This document shows, piece after piece, positions 9,936 through 16,269 of a stretch of DNA of 64,000 nucleotides. Positions within the stretch are counted from its first letter, which is position 1; each line of letters opens with the position of its first letter. The translations under genes and the position numbers were made by a program. Source of the stretch: Escherichia phage RB43; sequence record NC_007023.1. One strand, written 5' to 3'. The notes beneath the pieces are model-generated. The model saw only the letters and a program-made list of their open reading frames with translations. It made no database searches and was not told where the DNA came from.

Positions 9936-10490
9936 ATGTTATTTTCGTTCTTTCCACCAGTTGATTACAACGGTACACCAACTACTGATATCTTTCGTGA
10001 TTATCGTTTTTACTTTAATCGTGTGATCAGGAATTATAAGCCGCGTACATATCAACTGACAGGTTCATTAAGACCTGAACAATTAGCTGAAACGCTATAC
10101 GGAAACCAACAATATTATTGGGTTATCCTGATGCTCAATGACAACTATGACCCGTTTTATGGTTGGATCACAGATCAGGAAACAGCTTATCAATGCGCTG
10201 TTCAACGTTATTCAAAAGTAGGTGGTGAGCAGGTTCTTTATCACATGGATGGGAAAAACAACCGATATTACAATCTGGTTGAAGATCCTAACAACCCTGG
10301 TCATTGGTATGACAAAGGTGATAAAGACATGCGTTATTTGCAGTATCAGGGAACATTAGTCCCTATTGATATTTATGAAGACGCAGTGTTGAAAAATGAA
10401 TCAATGCGAACCATTAAGATTATTAACCCTTCGGATATTCAATCGTTTGTAAGCGATTATATCAAGGAAATGGAAAAGGCAAACACATGA
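9936..10490 (+). CDS. 53: baseplate wedge protein gp53
   Basis: MLFSFFPP...TDIFRDY...NDNYDPFYGWIT...WYDKGDK...IKII matches T4 gp53. Confidence 0.85.
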   Translation: MLFSFFPPVDYNGTPTTDIFRDYRFYFNRVIRNYKPRTYQLTGSLRPEQLAETLYGNQQYYWVILMLNDNYDPFYGWITDQETAYQCAVQRYSKVGGEQVLYHMDGKNNRYYNLVEDPNNPGHWYDKGDKDMRYLQYQGTLVPIDIYEDAVLKNESMRTIKIINPSDIQSFVSDYIKEMEKANT

Positions 10491-12256
10491 AATACGGTGG
10501 AAACCCATATTCCCCTTTCTTCGAAGGGGTGGTCGAAAATGTCGATGATCCTCGTTATCTGGGGCGCGTACAAGTTCGTGTGTTCGGTGAACATCCGGCA
10601 CAGAAACAAAAATCTGAAACTATCGGTATTCCGGTAGAAGAATTGCCGTGGATGATCCCTATCCAGGACATCACAAGCGCTGCTGTATCGGGTGTGGGTT
10701 TCTCTCCTACTGGTATCGTAAGGGGTAGCTTCGTTGTAGGTTACTGGCGTGATAAATGGCATCAGGACGGGGTTATATTAGGAACCTATGCAGGACAGTA
10801 CACAGAAAAGCCGGATACGCAGAAAGGCTTCTGTGACCCTCTGGGTGAATATCCACGTTATGTGGGTAACGATGTCAACGTTCTGGCTCGTGGTGGTTTA
10901 GACGGTAAAACATCGTCAAGTGTTGTTATCCGTGATGCAAACAGCACACTCGCTGTTAATCCAGACGATAGGCCGTTAGATGAAATTCCAGAAGATAACC
11001 GACCGGATACTGGGGGCTTTACAATTGAAAAAATGATCCGTGGTGATGAAGGTATTCGATTGACATGGTATTATGATGTCAAAGGGTATACCATCGGGAT
11101 TGGACACTTTTTCTTAACCGCTCCACAAGGTACAGATCCAGCAGTTGTTAACGCAGCGTTATCTAAACAAATTGGTAGAACTGTTACGGGTGTTCCTGGA
11201 TCAATCACAGCAGAAGAAGCGGGTGTTTTATTCCAGCAAGATTTGGCTAAAGTTCGTAACGATATTCAGAATAACAGCAAAGTTCGTGAAGTTTATGTTG
11301 GGTTAAATCGCCCACGTCAAATGGCGATCGAAAACATGTGCTTCCAGATGGGTGTTGGTGGTGTCGCCAAATTTACGAATGCTCTTGCAGCAATGAAAGC
11401 ACAGGATTGGAAGACAGCCTATAATGAGTTGCGAAATTCAACATGGGCTAATCAAACTCCTGGGCGTTCTTCGCGCGTATCTAAAATCGTGTTGACAGGA
11501 AACCTTGAATCATATGGTGTTATGGTTCCAGATCCAGAAGGACGCAGTTTAAGTGCTGCTTTTTCTGGTGTTGTTTTGCAAACTGATTCAAACCCAGAAG
11601 ATCCGTTTGTTCCTGGCGATACTCGCGTAATGTTCGAAGAACCGAAATCATCGTATAACGCATCATATCCATATAACATGGTATTTGAATCACGTTCAGG
11701 GCATATTCAGGAATTCGATGATACACCAGGTTATGAACGATATAACCGAGTACACCCAGCAGGAACATATGAAGAAATTCGACCTGATGGAACCCGCGTT
11801 GTTAAAATAGTTGGTGATGATTATCTTATTGTTCAACAGGGCAGAAAGGTAAACATCAAAGGCAATTTACAAGTGGTAATTGAAGGTGACGCGTTCATTT
11901 ACAATATGGGTAACGTTCAACAGACTGTTGACGGAAACGTGACTGAGTTTGTACGCGGAAATGTTAACCAGACTGTCGAAGGTGAATACGTTGGACGCAT
12001 TAAGGGCAACGCTGAATTGACTGTTGAAAAAGATGCTACCGTAAACGTTGACCAGAATTTAATGGCTAACGTTAAACAAAACGCAACTGTTCACGTCACA
12101 GAGGATGCACTTGTTACCGCGAAAAACGCAATGATGGATATTGAGCAAGATTTCGATCTTAACGCAGAAAATATCACAATGGTTGCGCGAACAAATACAT
12201 TCATCGATTCCGGTTCTCTGACTAAGATAACTGGTGGAACGGTTCAGGTGGGTTAA
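10487..12256 (+). CDS. 5: baseplate hub subunit and tail lysozyme gp5
   Basis: N-terminal OB region, lysozyme motif GYTIGIGHF, C-terminal beta-helix VxGxxxxx repeats. Confidence 0.9.
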   Translation: MKYGGNPYSPFFEGVVENVDDPRYLGRVQVRVFGEHPAQKQKSETIGIPVEELPWMIPIQDITSAAVSGVGFSPTGIVRGSFVVGYWRDKWHQDGVILGTYAGQYTEKPDTQKGFCDPLGEYPRYVGNDVNVLARGGLDGKTSSSVVIRDANSTLAVNPDDRPLDEIPEDNRPDTGGFTIEKMIRGDEGIRLTWYYDVKGYTIGIGHFFLTAPQGTDPAVVNAALSKQIGRTVTGVPGSITAEEAGVLFQQDLAKVRNDIQNNSKVREVYVGLNRPRQMAIENMCFQMGVGGVAKFTNALAAMKAQDWKTAYNELRNSTWANQTPGRSSRVSKIVLTGNLESYGVMVPDPEGRSLSAAFSGVVLQTDSNPEDPFVPGDTRVMFEEPKSSYNASYPYNMVFESRSGHIQEFDDTPGYERYNRVHPAGTYEEIRPDGTRVVKIVGDDYLIVQQGRKVNIKGNLQVVIEGDAFIYNMGNVQQTVDGNVTEFVRGNVNQTVEGEYVGRIKGNAELTVEKDATVNVDQNLMANVKQNATVHVTEDALVTAKNAMMDIEQDFDLNAENITMVARTNTFIDSGSLTKITGGTVQVG

Positions 12257-12258
12257 TC

Positions 12259-14331
12259 ATGATCATGGATTATGAATCAATAATTGATGGTATTATGCAA
12301 GATTTTCAGCATCCGTGTGATGCTGAAATACCTGCTGGATCGTACAGGCGTATTATCTGGCAGGGACACACAGAAGATTACCCCGCTGTTGGGGTAGAAT
12401 GGGATACAGAAATCATTCCGATCGGGACGCATCTTTACACGCAATCCCCGTTTGGACAGAAAAGCGATCCGCTTCCGGTTGTCAACTCCCCAGGTACAGA
12501 TCCGGGTACTGGGGAAGCAACAGGGATTCTCGTTGCTAAAATTGGTTATTATTTCGCTACTCAACAAGAAATTGATGACTATATCACCTCTATCGGGGCT
12601 ACTAAGCTCGCAGGTAATGATTGGTATGGTGCGGATCTGACAAAAGCGAACCTGTTCAAAAACCCAGGCGAACTTGCAATGTACAAGGTCGAGAACTCAG
12701 GCGGTTATCTACTGACTTCTGGCCCACAATGCGATCAGCGTATCAGACAGGCGTATAATAGCGACACAGGCGCGTTTACAAGCGTTGATTACTATTGGAA
12801 TGGTAATCGTATTGCCTACATGAAACATGACGACACAGGGGCGCACAATTGCAAATACGTGGGTATGGTGGTTAACACCAACGCAGACACAAGCATTCCC
12901 CCTGTACCTCCGGCTATGCCGTCAATTTACGGGGCATTGCCTAGCGAAATTTCAATGATGCGCTCCGGTTTGGGTTGTCTTCCTGCAACGGTAGGTTTTG
13001 CGTACACGAATATCAGTGATGCAATGCTATCCGCATGGAACGAAACGCGCAAGTCGTTTAAGCTCGTGTTTGATATGCTTACGGGTATCACTAAAACGGG
13101 TTCCGGTGGTATCTCCACGATGTACGATGGTTTGTCTATCGCAATGGAGGAAATCACAGCGGGTGCTCTTGCGTTGTCACAGCAAGCATGGCAAGCCGCA
13201 ATTAAGGTGTTCAAAGATATTATGTCTTCTGCGTTAAACATCGTAGGTGGTGCGTGGAACATGATAATGAGTTTTTTACCAACTGTTACGATTCTGGGTG
13301 TTTCAATAAACATCTATGATCTGATTTTCGGTGATAACTCAGTGCAGACACTGAAAGATTCATTCCAGGCGATCATTGATGCTGGTACAGAAACCTATGA
13401 GAACGTCATAAACGCAATATACAGCGCTATAGGCAGTGCATACAATTATACCGTTGAATATGTCAAGGCTGGCGCTCGCGACCTCGTGGATGCTTGCAGT
13501 ACGCTTTTTGACTGGTGTATTACCATGTTTCAAAATGGTTGTGTTGCTCTGGTGGATCTGTATGGGCGAATAATGCAAATCTGGGCTATGCCTCCAACGG
13601 TTCCAAACCCTTTATGGGCTGCTGTTCTGGCTATCCGTAACATTATGATGCAGATCAAGCCGCTTGATGTGATCCTGGGTGGAAACTTCCCTGGGTTTAC
13701 GGCAATGGATTTGTACCAAATGGCACAGGAGAAGGTGAAAGAGTTTATCGATCAGTCGTATGCGCAAATACGCGTGTATTATGAACAGGTGAAGGATCTG
13801 ACTAGCACGTTGACTACACAGACACAAGAAAGGGATGCGATTAAACGCAAGTTCGATCAATACCTTAACTGGATGTGGGGCGCTGTTACAGATGCTGCTA
13901 CCGCTGCATATCAGGCTGCATTAGATGCTGCAAACGAGGCAATCGAGCAAACCAAAGCGCTTATCGCTGGCGTTAAAGCACAGATAGCCGCTCTACAGGA
14001 CGCGATGAAAGATACGTACAGCCTTGCGATGGAAGAACTTAAAAAACTTCCTTTGATGCAGCAGATTAATGAATTCTTAGGCTTCTGTGGGATTGCTTTT
14101 GATGATCTGCTGAAAACCTATGATAACGCGGTTACTGGGGCGAAATCATTATATAAAAACTTTGTTGACAGTTCCCGATCGTTTAAGGATACATGCAAAG
14201 TCATATATAACCAGATATGCACACTTGCTCTAAGTAAGGTGACTCAATACGTGAATAAACTGTTGTCTTTAATCGGACTCGCGATCACTTTTGCGTCAAT
14301 TAATATCTGCGTCCCTATGATTCAACTATAA
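12259..14331 (+). CDS. hypothetical 690-aa protein at the gp5-gp6 junction (helical, coiled-coil, hydrophobic segments)
   Basis: Long ORF tightly coupled to gp5 stop; no PAAR-like or other recognised motif. Confidence 0.6.
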   Translation: MIMDYESIIDGIMQDFQHPCDAEIPAGSYRRIIWQGHTEDYPAVGVEWDTEIIPIGTHLYTQSPFGQKSDPLPVVNSPGTDPGTGEATGILVAKIGYYFATQQEIDDYITSIGATKLAGNDWYGADLTKANLFKNPGELAMYKVENSGGYLLTSGPQCDQRIRQAYNSDTGAFTSVDYYWNGNRIAYMKHDDTGAHNCKYVGMVVNTNADTSIPPVPPAMPSIYGALPSEISMMRSGLGCLPATVGFAYTNISDAMLSAWNETRKSFKLVFDMLTGITKTGSGGISTMYDGLSIAMEEITAGALALSQQAWQAAIKVFKDIMSSALNIVGGAWNMIMSFLPTVTILGVSINIYDLIFGDNSVQTLKDSFQAIIDAGTETYENVINAIYSAIGSAYNYTVEYVKAGARDLVDACSTLFDWCITMFQNGCVALVDLYGRIMQIWAMPPTVPNPLWAAVLAIRNIMMQIKPLDVILGGNFPGFTAMDLYQMAQEKVKEFIDQSYAQIRVYYEQVKDLTSTLTTQTQERDAIKRKFDQYLNWMWGAVTDAATAAYQAALDAANEAIEQTKALIAGVKAQIAALQDAMKDTYSLAMEELKKLPLMQQINEFLGFCGIAFDDLLKTYDNAVTGAKSLYKNFVDSSRSFKDTCKVIYNQICTLALSKVTQYVNKLLSLIGLAITFASINICVPMIQL

Positions 14332-14334
14332 ATA
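14327..14334 (+). promoter_or_regulatory. T4-type late promoter box TATAAATA
   Basis: Exact TATAAATA about 20 nt upstream of gp6 ATG. Confidence 0.4.
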
Positions 14335-14354: not shown

Positions 14355-16269
14355 ATGGCTACCGTAAAGAAACAAATTAATCAGATCCCCGATATTTTTG
14401 TCGGGGCTACTTTTGATGAAATCAAATCGGAGTTTGATTAACTGGCTCCGAGGTCAGGACGAATTCAAAGATTATGATTTCTCTGGCTCGCGTATGAACG
14501 TGCTTGTTGACCTGCTGTCTTACGCGACATTGTATATTCAACAGATGGGTAACAGTGCTCTATTCGAATCATTTATTCGAACTGCGGCGCTTCGTAGTTC
14601 TGTTGTGCAACATGCTCAGGATTTTGGTTATATGCCGGATTCCCGTACTGCTGCAAACACTTCGATTCTGATTACAGCAAATAACCCACTGAACCCAACT
14701 TCAATTCGTATTCCTCGTGGTACGAAATTCATTGGTACAGTAAAAGATACGAACAGCTTCCCGTTTGTTGTGTCTGATGACGTTGTAATCGTTCGTGATA
14801 AAGATAACAACTATGTGTCGATGCTGAATATCGTACAGGGGCGTTTGGTTCGTACCGAAGTAATCTATGATGGTTCTACTATCCTGATCCGAGATCCGAA
14901 CATTGACCGTAGTCAGGTTCGAGTGACGATCAACGGCGCACAGTGGGACGATTGGACAAACGAAAGTATCGTTAACGCAACGGGCGCAAGTACCGTTTTC
15001 TATATGCGTGAAACGGTAGACGGACATACAGAGGTTTATTTCGGTGAAGGTGAGACAAGTCAACAGGTCGCGGGTGGTGCTCTTACCGCTGACTATATCG
15101 GGGGCTTGAAACCTGCAAACGGTTCTGTCGTTGTTATTGAATACATTTCAACCAACGGCGAAGAAGCAAACGGTGCTGAAAACTTTGTTTACGTGGATAC
15201 GTTGACAAACATCAGCATTACAAGTATTGTTGAGAACCCGACCAACTCTGCTGATTATGTCGGTGCTGATGGTGGTGGTGAACCGGAAGACATTGAACGA
15301 ATTCGAGAATTAGCCCCGATCATGCGTGAAACGCAGCGTCGTTGTGTTACTGCATCGGATTACGAATCATTCCTGTCGCATCGTTTCGGCTCTGTGATTC
15401 AGGCGGTTCAGTGCTTTACCGATAGTGAAAAACCTGGATATGCGTTCATCGCGGTTAAACCGAAATCAGGGTTGCGCCTAACCTCAGTACAGAAAGAGGA
15501 TATGCAAAACTATCTGGCTAAGTATAACCTTGCGACAATTACGCCGTCGATTCTCGACCCTAACTATCTGTATATCGTACAAAGCATTAAAGTCACGTAT
15601 GATATCAGTAAGTTAATCGAGTCAGAAGAATGGCTACGTGGTCAGGTTATCAATGAAATTGACAAGTATTACACTGATAACGTTGAAATTTTCAACAGAT
15701 CATTCAGTAAATCGAAGATGTTGACTTATGTCGATAACGCTGATGTGTCAATCATTGGTTCCTCTGCGACGATTAGCCTGTTGCGTGAACTGGATAACTA
15801 TTACAGTGCGCCGATGTCTGGTATTCACTTCTTAAACCAGGTTGCGTCAAGATCTGTTATTTCTAACGGGTTCAAATATACCAACGCAGATGATGATTCA
15901 TATGATGTGCGCTATGCGTCAACTGATATGGATACATCGACCGGACGTGCTAAGATTGTAATTGGCCCGTTTAAAGATGGTGATATTGCGATAACTCCGT
16001 ATGCTGGTAACGATTTTGATAAATACCCAGGGGTGACAGACAGAACGAAATACTATGAGGTTGGCTATATCGAACATTATAGCGATTTCATCAGCTTCGA
16101 TCTGGGTGTGCTTAACGTCCCAGCAGAACGCTTTAGCGCTGCATATATCGAACTGACTGCAAAACCATTGGAAGAAACCATTTTTACTCGTGATGGTTCT
16201 CTGATTGTATTTGAAAATGACCTTCGTCCTCAGTATACCACGCTGACGATGAATCCAATCAGTCAATAA
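14355..16269 (+). CDS. 6: baseplate wedge protein gp6 (needs +1 frame change near codon 26)
   Basis: ATG 14355 with AGAGGGG SD encodes MATVKKQINQIPDIFVGATFDEIK (matches T4 gp6 N-terminus) then TAA at 14439; rest of gp6 is in +1 frame from about 14434. Confidence 0.85.

What the first reader, a model, noticed from the sequence alone, without database searches (positions are those of the whole stretch)
12259..14331. 690-aa unknown ORF where T4 has 5.1-5.4 (including the PAAR spike tip) between gp5 and gp6
The ORF starts 3 nt after the gp5 stop and ends at the gp6 late promoter, so it is expressed with baseplate genes. I see no PAAR-like motif. It is predicted helical with a coiled-coil stretch (QAALDAANEAIEQTKALIAGVKAQIAALQDAMKD) and several hydrophobic segments, including the C-terminus (LLSLIGLAITFASINICVPMIQL). 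It could be a hub-associated or membrane-active injected protein. No PAAR protein is visible in this window.
Basis: partly seen in the sequence, partly recalled or inferred. Interest (0 to 1): 0.65.

Follow-up and report, generated by a model that had tools for sequence, protein, structure and literature searches.

The report
Non-PAAR spike-tip protein of phage RB43
This 690-residue gene, just after the tail-spike gene of the T4-like phage RB43, most likely encodes a large, structurally unprecedented cap for the tip of the membrane-piercing spike, replacing the small PAAR cap of T4; a 2025 preprint had already suspected this.

Summary
The ORF is real: window 12259-14331 (+), 690 aa, dN/dS 0.03-0.10, found in 214 phage genomes. 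It is RB43 orf205w. A 2025 preprint (PMC12407873) already proposed it as a "unique" spike tip, from synteny and a 17.7 A map, without proof.

What I add:
- No PAAR protein in the RB43 genome (Pfam scan with a positive control).
- The helical remainder has only tape measure proteins as remote relatives. This holds in both search directions, and reversed and shuffled controls are clean.
- The gene always directly follows gp5, and those gp5s share a near-invariant C-terminus (...TGGxVxVG).
- A natural cassette swap. Phage vB_EcoM_G8 (Tequatrovirus) is 97-98% identical to T4 on both sides, but [gp5 distal tip + 5.1-segC-5.3-5.4] is replaced by [family-type gp5 tip + this gene]. G8 has no gp5.4 anywhere.

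Verdict: most likely a non-PAAR spike-tip protein that docks on the gp5 tip (about 0.7). A membrane-active role for the tape-measure-like domain is inferred only. The idea is not new, but the protein is an unusual variant with a testable system.

The parts
9936..10490 (+). Gene 53 (baseplate wedge), first gene of the 53-5-ORF run; its stop overlaps the gp5 start
   Evidence: Pfam Phage_gp53 at E=7e-63; ORF coordinates
10487..12256 (+). Gene 5 (RB43 orf204): hub spike with OB domain, lysozyme and beta-helix, 589 aa
   Evidence: Pfam Gp5_OB at 3e-66, Phage_lysozyme, Gp5_C; phrog_430
11993..12253 (+). Distal gp5 beta-helix (about residues 503-589). This is the part that is exchanged together with the downstream gene in the natural T4/G8 cassette swap
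   Evidence: The blastn breakpoint between G8 and T4 lies at gp5 codon ~502; regional identities
12203..12253 (+). Last 17 residues of gp5 (...DSGSLTKITGGTVQVG): the putative docking platform and the most conserved gp5 segment among phages that carry the family
   Evidence: Column identity is 0.87 here against 0.58-0.73 in the preceding beta-helix; pairwise identity is 0.65-0.76 against 0.33-0.35; identity to T4 is only 0.44. The motif TGGTVxVG is kept even next to the most divergent members
12246..12252 (+). Shine-Dalgarno-like AGGTGGG, 6 nt upstream of the ORF's ATG and inside the end of gene 5 (suggesting translational coupling)
   Evidence: Read directly from the sequence. The gap between the gp5 stop and the family gene start is -1 to +4 nt in 13 loci
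12259..14331 (+). The ORF itself (RB43 orf205w), 690 aa plus stop; member of phrog_5296; putative non-PAAR spike-tip protein
12259..12954 (+). N-terminal alpha/beta domain (aa 1-232), an apparently novel fold with invariant C20 and C198
12955..13698 (+). Linker strands plus first helical subdomain (aa 233-480). It holds the core of the tape-measure-like similarity, the IVGG(A/G)W motif and the hydrophobic beta-hairpin at 342-351
   Evidence: The TMP PHROG matches share roughly aa 250-400; secondary structure; hydrophobicity
13699..14088 (+). Long antiparallel helical hairpin and following helices (aa 481-610). This is the most variable part of the protein
   Evidence: Helices 482-536 (about 82 A) and 545-582. 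Column identity is 0.43-0.54. The highest dN/dS, 0.16, is found here
14089..14328 (+). Conserved C-terminal region (aa 611-690): helix 638-670 and a terminal hydrophobic beta-strand 681-689 containing C684
14327..14334 (+). T4-type late promoter motif TATAAATA for gene 6, overlapping the ORF's stop codon
   Evidence: Exact match found; sequence
14355..16269 (+). Gene 6 (baseplate wedge), the downstream boundary of the variable slot
   Evidence: Five Gp6 Pfam domains; annotated start in RB43-GVA

Best explanation
The ORF is RB43 orf205w, a genuine late structural gene that is co-transcribed and probably translationally coupled with gene 5. It most likely encodes the spike-tip protein of RB43-type tails. 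In this reading the protein docks on the blunt C-terminal platform of the trimeric gp5 beta-helix, in the position that the 97-residue PAAR protein gp5.4 occupies in T4. It is not a PAAR protein. It has a 232-residue alpha/beta domain with no known structural relative, followed by about 460 residues of helical bundle that include a hairpin of about 80 A. The only remote sequence relatives of the helical part are phage tape measure proteins. On sheath contraction it would be the first phage protein to meet the outer membrane and would travel with gp5 into the periplasm. I further infer that the tape-measure-like helical module then acts on the envelope, for example by membrane insertion or by priming a channel, in the way the TM and helical-bundle module of tape measures does. 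SHOWN here: the gene is real and under purifying selection; RB43, RB16 and G8 have no PAAR protein; the fold is not PAAR; the gene is always adjacent to gp5; a family-specific gp5 C-terminus exists; the gp5 tip and this gene are exchanged as one unit against the gp5 tip and 5.1-5.4 in a T4-genus phage; the similarity to tape measures is specific. FROM THE LITERATURE: RB43 has a larger density at its spike tip. INFERRED: physical docking on gp5, copy number, and any membrane activity.
For: (1) Identity and prior proposal: the ORF is 100% identical to RB43. Preprint PMC12407873 names orf205w as the possible 'unique tip', reports a larger tip density in a 17.7 A map, and states that RB43, RB16 and Lw1 lack gene 5.4. 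(2) No PAAR: 204 RB43 proteins of 65-330 aa give no Pfam PAAR_motif hit, while the T4 gp5.4 control scores 9.4e-10. tblastn of gp5.4, gp5.1 and gp5.3 is negative in the window and in RB16, and RB16 has no PAAR annotation. (3) Obligate linkage to gp5: the order gp53-gp5-family-gp6 holds in 14 loci down to 37% identity, with junctions of -1 to +4 nt. The most divergent members found among 1.84 billion representative proteins also directly follow a gp5. (4) Co-varying partner surface: the last 17 residues of gp5 are its most conserved segment in this clade and differ from T4; the ending ...TGGTVxVG is kept next to every member. (5) Natural swap: vB_EcoM_G8 (Tequatrovirus) is 98.4% and 97.0% identical to T4 on the two sides. 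The block from gp5 codon ~502 to the end of 5.4 is replaced by a family-type gp5 tip plus the family gene. The whole G8 genome has no gp5.4, 5.1 or 5.3. The cassette occurs at >=99.3% identity in 7 phages. G8's family protein and its gp5 tip are both closest to the Proteus-phage branch, while gp5 residues 1-470 are T4's. (6) The gene is functional: dN/dS is 0.03-0.10 and it is present in 214 phage records. (7) Structure: the full-length AF2 model is compact and confident (pLDDT 87.7, pTM 0.78). (8) Tape-measure-like module: 11 TMP PHROGs match at E down to 5e-13. Reversed and block-shuffled controls give no hits, and distant members hit TMP PHROGs independently. The only non-family hits of the family profile in the exhaustive search are bona fide TMPs. 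A recent preprint shows that the T4 tape measure's TM and helical-bundle module is membrane-associated and proposes that it forms the DNA channel.
Against: I found no direct evidence that the protein is in the virion: the paper library held no mass-spectrometry data for this family. [quoted passage not shown] The N-domain has no detectable internal threefold repeat that would explain how a monomer caps a trimer. It also has no invariant His-based metal site of the kind seen in PAAR or P2 gpV. A bulky tip of about 76 kDa is counter-intuitive for a piercing device. The tape-measure resemblance could instead point to a location in the tube lumen. The similarity to TMPs is weak (E=3e-9 to 9e-5 library-wide), is absent from the Pfam TMP models, and is absent against the phage's own gp29 family (hhalign probability 0.4%).
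Confidence: 0.7

Rival explanations
1. The protein is a second, tape-measure-like ejection protein stored inside the tail (in the tube lumen or the gp27-gp5 hub cavity) and released through the tube. It would not be mounted on the outside of the spike tip, and the larger RB43 tip density would come from something else or from the altered gp5 tip.
For: The helical region specifically resembles classical tape measures. Several database records annotate homologs as 'tail length tape measure protein'. There is no direct localisation data.
Against: RB43 and RB16 keep a canonical gp29 in the hub cluster. The family shows no profile similarity to gp29. The AF2 model is a compact globule with pTM 0.78, not an extended fibre. 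The gene is tied to gp5, not to the genes 27-28-29-48-54. In G8 the co-swapped partner is precisely the external distal tip of gp5. Without this protein, RB43, RB16 and G8 would have no identifiable tip protein at all.
Confidence: 0.12
2. The protein is a non-virion assembly factor or chaperone needed to fold or trim the variant gp5 beta-helix tip. It would be absent from the mature particle.
For: It is genetically inseparable from the gp5 tip. Co-production with gp5-beta did not give a stable complex. The functions of T4 genes 5.1 and 5.3 in the same slot are unknown.
Against: The preprint sees extra mass at the RB43 tip. A 690-aa, strongly conserved, two-domain protein is large for a dedicated chaperone of an approximately 90-residue segment. 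It replaces a block that contains the structural tip protein gp5.4.
Confidence: 0.08
3. The larger RB43 tip is formed by the separately encoded Sf6-type needle-knob protein (233 aa, presumably trimeric). The 690-aa protein would then have another role.
For: RB43 encodes a protein whose C-terminal 146 residues are 46% identical to the Sf6 tail-needle knob (Pfam Phage_tail_NK at 8.9e-35). Knob domains are, as the name says, needle-tip domains, and I assume (not tested here) that this one trimerises like the Sf6 knob, which would match the gp5 trimer.
Against: The knob gene is absent from RB16 and not annotated in G8, and both phages also lack PAAR. It co-occurs with gp5.4 in TH40 and TH54 (the same accessions appear). 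It also occurs in Klebsiella phages of about 57-60 kb. It lies in an early-gene region on the opposite strand with its own terminator, far from gene 5.
Confidence: 0.05

Closest known systems
T4 gp5.4 and PAAR-repeat spike-tip proteins (Pfam PF05488; gp5-beta/gp5.4 crystal structure PDB 4KU0, as deposited by the preprint authors)
   Same: It occupies the same genomic slot directly downstream of the spike gene. It is mutually exclusive with gp5.4 in the three complete genomes tested. It is exchanged against gp5.4 together with the gp5 tip in G8. It presumably sits in the same position on the gp5 C-terminal platform.
   Different: It has 690 residues instead of 97. It has no PAAR motif and no PAAR fold. 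It shows no pseudo-threefold repeat and no invariant His ligands. It carries a large helical module.
Extended ('evolved') PAAR proteins of type VI secretion systems, which carry C-terminal effector domains (from my own knowledge of the T6SS literature)
   Same: It may share the logic of a tip-docking module fused to a cargo that is delivered first into the target envelope.
   Different: The docking module is not a PAAR domain. The cargo looks like a tape-measure-type helical bundle, not an enzyme. The architecture never varies: the N-domain was not found with any other partner.
Classical phage tape measure proteins (for example phrog_1272, 167, 1535, 4200, 58) and the TM plus helical-bundle module of T4 gp29 (bioRxiv 10.64898/2026.03.06.709160)
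   Same: Residues of about 250-660 show directional sequence similarity to these families. TMPs are the only remote hits of the family profile. Both are all-helical with hydrophobic elements hidden in a soluble fold.
   Different: It is a compact globular model, not an extended ruler. It is not encoded in the tape-measure position. The phage has its own gp29. There is no Pfam TMP match, no profile match to gp29, and Foldseek matches to TMP models are insignificant.
Spikes with a fused apex domain, such as P2 gpV, which has an HxH motif near its C-terminus (as described in PMC12407873)
   Same: The function is the same: terminating and sharpening, or functionalising, the spike.
   Different: Here the tip is a separate polypeptide, and RB43 gp5 ends as a blunt platform like T4 gp5. 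There is no HxH motif. The conserved residues are four cysteines (C20, C198, C240, C684).
Alpha-helical pore-forming toxins and translocators (YaxB, Hbl-B, IpaB)
   Different: The matches are of the same strength as those to prefoldin, HlyD and designed bundles, so they are generic. The hairpin is charged in most family members. I do not claim a relationship.

Membership tests
PAAR-repeat spike-tip proteins (PF05488; T4 gp5.4) | Sequence match to the PAAR motif profile | tested here: not met
   The ORF has no PAAR_motif hit at E<=0.1, whereas T4 gp5.4 scores 9.4e-10 in the same library. hhalign of the family against gp5.4 gives a probability of 0.1%.
PAAR-repeat spike-tip proteins (PF05488; T4 gp5.4) | Conical beta-structure (the PAAR fold) with pseudo-threefold symmetry | tested here: not met
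PAAR-repeat spike-tip proteins (PF05488; T4 gp5.4) | Metal site near the apex formed by conserved His and Cys residues (from my own knowledge of T6SS PAAR structures) | tested here: inconclusive
   Four conserved Cys residues are present (C20 and C198 at 100%; C240 and C684 at 96%), but no His is invariant (H18 at 69%, H190 at 82%).
PAAR-repeat spike-tip proteins (functional class: spike-tip cap) | [quoted passage not shown] | not testable with these tools
   The evidence is only indirect: the cassette swap, the conserved gp5 terminus, and the published 17.7 A map. No multimer prediction was available.
Phage tape measure proteins | Significant similarity to curated TMP families | tested here: inconclusive
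   The PHROG TMP families match at E=5e-13 to 5e-3 with clean reversed and shuffled controls, and TMPs are the only remote hits in the exhaustive search. However, there is no Pfam or NCBIfam TMP hit, and Foldseek matches to TMP models have E>0.1.
Phage tape measure proteins | Acts as the tail-length ruler, encoded in the tape-measure position with no other TMP in the genome | tested here: not met
   RB43 and RB16 have a canonical gp29 in the 27-28-29-48-54 cluster. The ORF lies between genes 5 and 6. hhalign against the gp29 family gives a probability of 0.4%.
Phage tape measure proteins | Extended, mostly helical fibre spanning the tube | tested here: not met
   AF2 predicts a compact two-part globule (pTM 0.78) with an alpha/beta N-domain.
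phrog_5296 (function unknown) | Full-length profile match | tested here: met
   E=0, 1290 bits, aa 3-689 aligned to profile positions 1-684 of 685. The divergent members P0137 and P0138 also match.
T4 gp5.1 / gp5.3 (the other occupants of the slot) | Sequence similarity | tested here: not met
   tblastn gives only noise. hhalign against gp5.1 gives a probability of 0.4%. gp5.3 was tested by tblastn only.

The most novel reading that the evidence does not exclude
The tip of the RB43-type spike would not be a passive sharpening cone. It would be a pre-positioned, tape-measure-derived, membrane-active device: a cap domain of novel fold fused to a helical module that refolds into the host envelope once the spike has been driven in. 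This would be a third solution for tipping a contractile injection system, alongside PAAR caps and fused apex domains, and it would be freely interchangeable with PAAR as a [spike-tip + tip-protein] cassette even within the T4 genus.
Probability: 0.3. Interest if true: 0.8.

Novelty: new variant of a known kind. Interest (0 to 1): 0.6.

Why it matters
Spike tips decide how contractile injection machines (phage tails, tailocins, type VI secretion systems) breach the cell envelope. So far the known solutions are PAAR cones and fused metal-binding apexes. This family would be a third, unrelated solution. It is seven times larger than T4's tip, has an orphan fold, and carries a module related only to tape measure proteins, which have been proposed to form the DNA channel. 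It is common: 214 sequenced phages carry it, including many Klebsiella, Enterobacter and Cronobacter phages that are candidates for therapy. In almost all of them it is annotated as hypothetical or misannotated as tape measure, SbcC or baseplate hub. The G8/T4 pair found here is a near-isogenic natural experiment, with about 97-98% identity on both sides of the swapped block. It makes two questions directly testable in the best genetic system available: what a tip protein does, and how it recognises its spike.

Tried and rejected
- Pfam, NCBIfam and PADLOC scans of the ORF gave only coiled-coil noise.
- A profile search of PDB sequences gave only coiled-coil noise, with a best E of 0.0098.
- Foldseek against BFVD found only the family itself.
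- BLAST and hhalign against RB43/RB16 gp29 were negative, so the idea that the ORF is a gp29 paralog is rejected.
- hhalign against gp5.4 and gp5.1 was negative.
- The idea that the PHROG tape-measure hits are compositional artefacts is rejected, because the reversed and block-shuffled sequences gave no hits.
- Transmembrane helices are rejected. Segment 335-357 carries 4-5 charges in most members and is a beta-hairpin in the model. The C-terminal segment is a beta-strand with conserved Pro, Asn and Ser.
- Modular reuse of the N-domain with other cargos is rejected. The only extra hits were fragments of the same gene.
- The Sf6-knob protein as the general tip is rejected on its distribution.
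- Correlating gp5-tip divergence with family divergence was uninformative, because phylogeny dominates.
- A test for pseudo-threefold repeats in the N-domain found none.
- Literature searches for virion proteomics of family-bearing phages found nothing usable.
Full report
OBSERVATION. The window is phage RB43 (Pseudotevenvirus). The region is 100% identical to the RB43 records and to the 180,500-bp RB43 contig. An ATG-initiated ORF of 690 codons runs from 12259 to 14331 on the + strand. It starts 2 nt after the TAA of gene 5 (12254-12256), behind an AGGTGGG Shine-Dalgarno-like motif. It ends at a TAA that lies inside TATAAATA (14327-14334). That is the only exact late-promoter motif between gene 53 and gene 6. 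Pfam confirms the neighbours as gp53, gp5 and gp6. The ORF is not a chance frame. Full-length homologs occur in 214 phage records and in 53 clusters at 90% identity in the large protein collection. dN/dS against close relatives is 0.03-0.10 in every part of the gene.

PRIOR KNOWLEDGE. The gene is RB43 orf205w. In 2006 it was listed as a novel ORF with only a meaningless Pfam hit. A 2025 preprint from the Leiman and Belin laboratories (PMC12407873; revised 2026) makes four relevant statements. First, RB43, RB16 and Lw1 lack gene 5.4. Second, the 5.1-5.4 slot holds orf205w, with residues 1-220 mixed alpha/beta and the rest helical. Third, producing it in complex with gp5-beta failed. Fourth, a 17.7 A, C6-symmetrised map shows a larger tip on the RB43 spike, into which a low-confidence AlphaFold model 'can fit'. 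[quoted passage not shown] So the central idea is not new, but it is unproven. I found no virion proteomics for any phage that carries the family.

IS THERE A PAAR PROTEIN ANYWHERE? I assembled the RB43 genome from the window plus three fetched pieces and called genes. I then scanned all 204 proteins of 65-330 aa against Pfam. The T4 gp5.4 control scored 9.4e-10 on PAAR_motif, and no RB43 protein matched. tblastn with T4 gp5.1, 5.3 and 5.4 was negative in the window and in the whole RB16 genome, and the RB16 annotation has no PAAR entry. RB16 has a canonical hub cluster 27-28-29-48-54-51-26-25. The RB43 ORF at the syntenic gp29 position matches the gp29-type PHROGs 7361 and 1283. The ORF is therefore an extra protein and not the tape measure.

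THE TAPE-MEASURE CONNECTION. Besides its own family (phrog_5296, function unknown), the ORF matches eleven tape-measure PHROGs over residues of about 230-660, at E from 5e-13 to 5e-3. I tested whether this is a composition artefact. The reversed sequence and a block-shuffled sequence gave no hit at all, while members at 37-43% identity hit tape-measure PHROGs independently. In the other direction, an exhaustive HMMER search with the family profile against 1.84 billion representative proteins returned only 18 proteins at E<=0.001. These were family members, fragments, and five long proteins at E=3e-9 to 9e-5. Four of those five are unmistakable tape measures (TMP PHROGs at E <= 1e-115) and the fifth is tape-measure-like. 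The resemblance is therefore specific, but it is weak. It is not seen with Pfam TMP models, with Foldseek, or against the phage's own gp29 family (hhalign probability 0.4%). I file it as 'resembles', not 'is a member'. For context, a 2026 preprint reports that the TM plus helical-bundle module of T4 gp29 purifies with the membrane fraction, binds the superinfection-exclusion protein Imm, and is proposed to form the DNA channel.

LINKAGE TO THE gp5 TIP. In 14 loci spanning the family's diversity the gene order is gp53-gp5-family-gp6, and the gp5 stop and the family start are -1 to +4 nt apart. RB16 merely has a homing endonuclease inserted after the family gene. The two most divergent members found in the exhaustive search also keep this neighbourhood. 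One follows a lysozyme-less, 390-aa gp5. The other follows a gp5 C-terminal fragment at a contig edge and precedes gp25-like, gp6, gp7 and gp8 genes. Among these phages the gp5 beta-helix is variable, but its last 17 residues are the most conserved part of gp5. Column identity there is 0.87, and pairwise identity is 0.65-0.76 against 0.33-0.35 for the preceding helix. This segment differs from T4's. Every gp5 next to a family member ends in ...TGG(T/N/D)V(Q/S/V)VG, whereas T4 ends in ...IDGSRIDIG.

A NATURAL CASSETTE SWAP. The strongest new evidence comes from Escherichia phage vB_EcoM_G8, which is classified in Tequatrovirus, T4's own genus. Its gp5 is 99-100% identical to T4 gp5 over residues 1-470. 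Identity falls to 59% in the distal helix and to 33% in the last 17 residues, and the protein ends in ...SKVSGGNVQVG. At the nucleotide level G8 and T4 are 98.4% identical up to gp5 codon ~502, and 97.0% identical again from the last bases of gene 5.4 into genes 6 and 7. Between these points, 1,605 nt of T4 (gp5 tip, 5.1, segC, 5.3, 5.4) are replaced by 2,295 nt of G8 (a family-type gp5 tip plus a 678-aa family member). The complete G8 genome has no gp5.4, gp5.1 or gp5.3 by tblastn; gp5.4 gave no hit even at E<=10, while the control gp53 is 99.5% identical. It also has no PAAR annotation. The same cassette occurs at >=99.3% identity in seven phages isolated on E. coli and Salmonella, so the configuration is viable and has spread. 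G8's family protein and its gp5 tip are both closest to the Proteus-phage branch, while the rest of its gp5 is T4's. The unit of exchange is thus 'distal gp5 tip plus the downstream gene(s)'. That is what one expects if the downstream product must fit the tip, and it shows that this family can stand in for the block containing the PAAR tip in a T4 background. The family also occurs in Gaprivervirus (Tevenvirinae), Slopekvirus and Pseudotevenvirus.

MECHANISM. The best-supported reading (about 0.7) is that the protein is the spike-tip protein, docking on the gp5 C-terminal platform in place of gp5.4. Which part forms the cap, and in how many copies, is unknown. The invariant two-part architecture and the compact model suggest that the whole protein forms the enlarged tip. 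I infer, with much lower confidence (about 0.3), that the tape-measure-like helical module acts on the envelope after penetration. The variable 80-A hairpin is the most exposed-looking element and has the highest dN/dS (0.16).

RIVALS. Three alternatives remain. The first is an internal tape-measure-like ejection protein (0.12). The second is a non-virion assembly factor for the variant gp5 tip (0.08). The third is that the RB43 tip density belongs to a separately encoded Sf6-type knob protein (0.05). The knob protein is a 233-aa protein at RB43 genome position 74,891-75,592, matching Pfam Phage_tail_NK at 8.9e-35. It is absent from RB16 and not annotated in G8. It co-occurs with gp5.4 in TH40 and TH54. 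It is also found in Klebsiella phages of about 57-60 kb. It therefore cannot be the general replacement for PAAR.

NOVELTY AND SCORE. What remains notable is the nature of the protein: a non-PAAR tip of about 76 kDa, with an orphan N-terminal fold and a tape-measure-like module. I rate it a new variant of a known kind (spike-tip proteins of contractile injection systems). The G8/T4 natural chimera makes it directly testable. Interest 0.6.

Noticed in passing
Outside the window: RB43 genome 74,891-75,592 (+) = L010:24891-25592: A 233-aa protein whose C-terminal 146 aa are 46% identical to the Sf6 tail-needle knob (Pfam Phage_tail_NK at 8.9e-35). It is a stand-alone + strand gene with its own terminator among - strand early genes. 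It is sporadic: present in RB43, GuL6, Miller and CfP1, absent from RB16, and also found in T4-like phages that have gp5.4 and in Klebsiella phages of about 57-60 kb. Its place in a myovirus virion is unknown.
   Followed up: partly
L023 (vB_EcoM_G8 73951-83969) compared with L006 (T4 74000-84000): The left breakpoint of the T4/G8 cassette swap (T4 L006 position 5466) lies about 110 nt downstream of T4 oriE (L006 5356). The T4 block that is replaced contains the homing endonuclease segC. In RB16 another homing endonuclease sits directly after the family gene. Homing-endonuclease-driven co-conversion may be what mobilises these tip cassettes.
   Followed up: no
window 12955-13698 (aa 233-480 of the ORF) compared with RB16 (L015): Synonymous divergence between RB43 and RB16 drops to dS=0.056 in this segment, against 0.5-1.2 in the rest of the gene. 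This indicates a recent recombination patch inside the gene.
   Followed up: no
window 12316-12318, 12850-12852, 12976-12978 and 14308-14310 (codons C20, C198, C240 and C684): Four cysteines are conserved across the family (100%, 100%, 96% and 96%). C240 and C684 lie in two predicted beta-strands at opposite ends of the helical region. They could form a metal site or disulfides that staple the N-domain, the linker and the C-terminus. This is unexplained.
   Followed up: partly
Public records of homologs: The same protein is variously annotated as hypothetical protein, 'tail length tape measure protein', 'baseplate hub structural protein' or 'SbcC-like subunit of palindrome specific endonuclease'. 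In a few records (phT4A, CPRSB, kp20) it is split or truncated, probably by sequencing frameshifts.
   Followed up: no
window 63667 onwards compared with HE858210.2: The window carries 261 nt more than the RB43-GVA isolate between genome positions of about 95.6 kb and 159 kb. It matches the original 180,500-bp RB43 sequence instead, so there are indel differences between the two RB43 isolates within the window.
   Followed up: no
L033:219-1388 (metagenomic contig with the most divergent family member, P0138): The gp5 upstream of this family member is only 390 aa: an OB domain plus beta-helix with no lysozyme domain by Pfam. It still ends in ...FTGGTVVVG. This looks like a lysozyme-less T4-type spike paired with this tip family.
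   Followed up: no
window 14355-14406: The mechanical ORF list starts gene 6 at TTG 14398, but the annotated ATG at 14355 (behind AAGAGGGG and the late promoter at 14327) is the likely start. A terminator-like hairpin (14387-14406) lies just inside the 5' end of gene 6.
   Followed up: no
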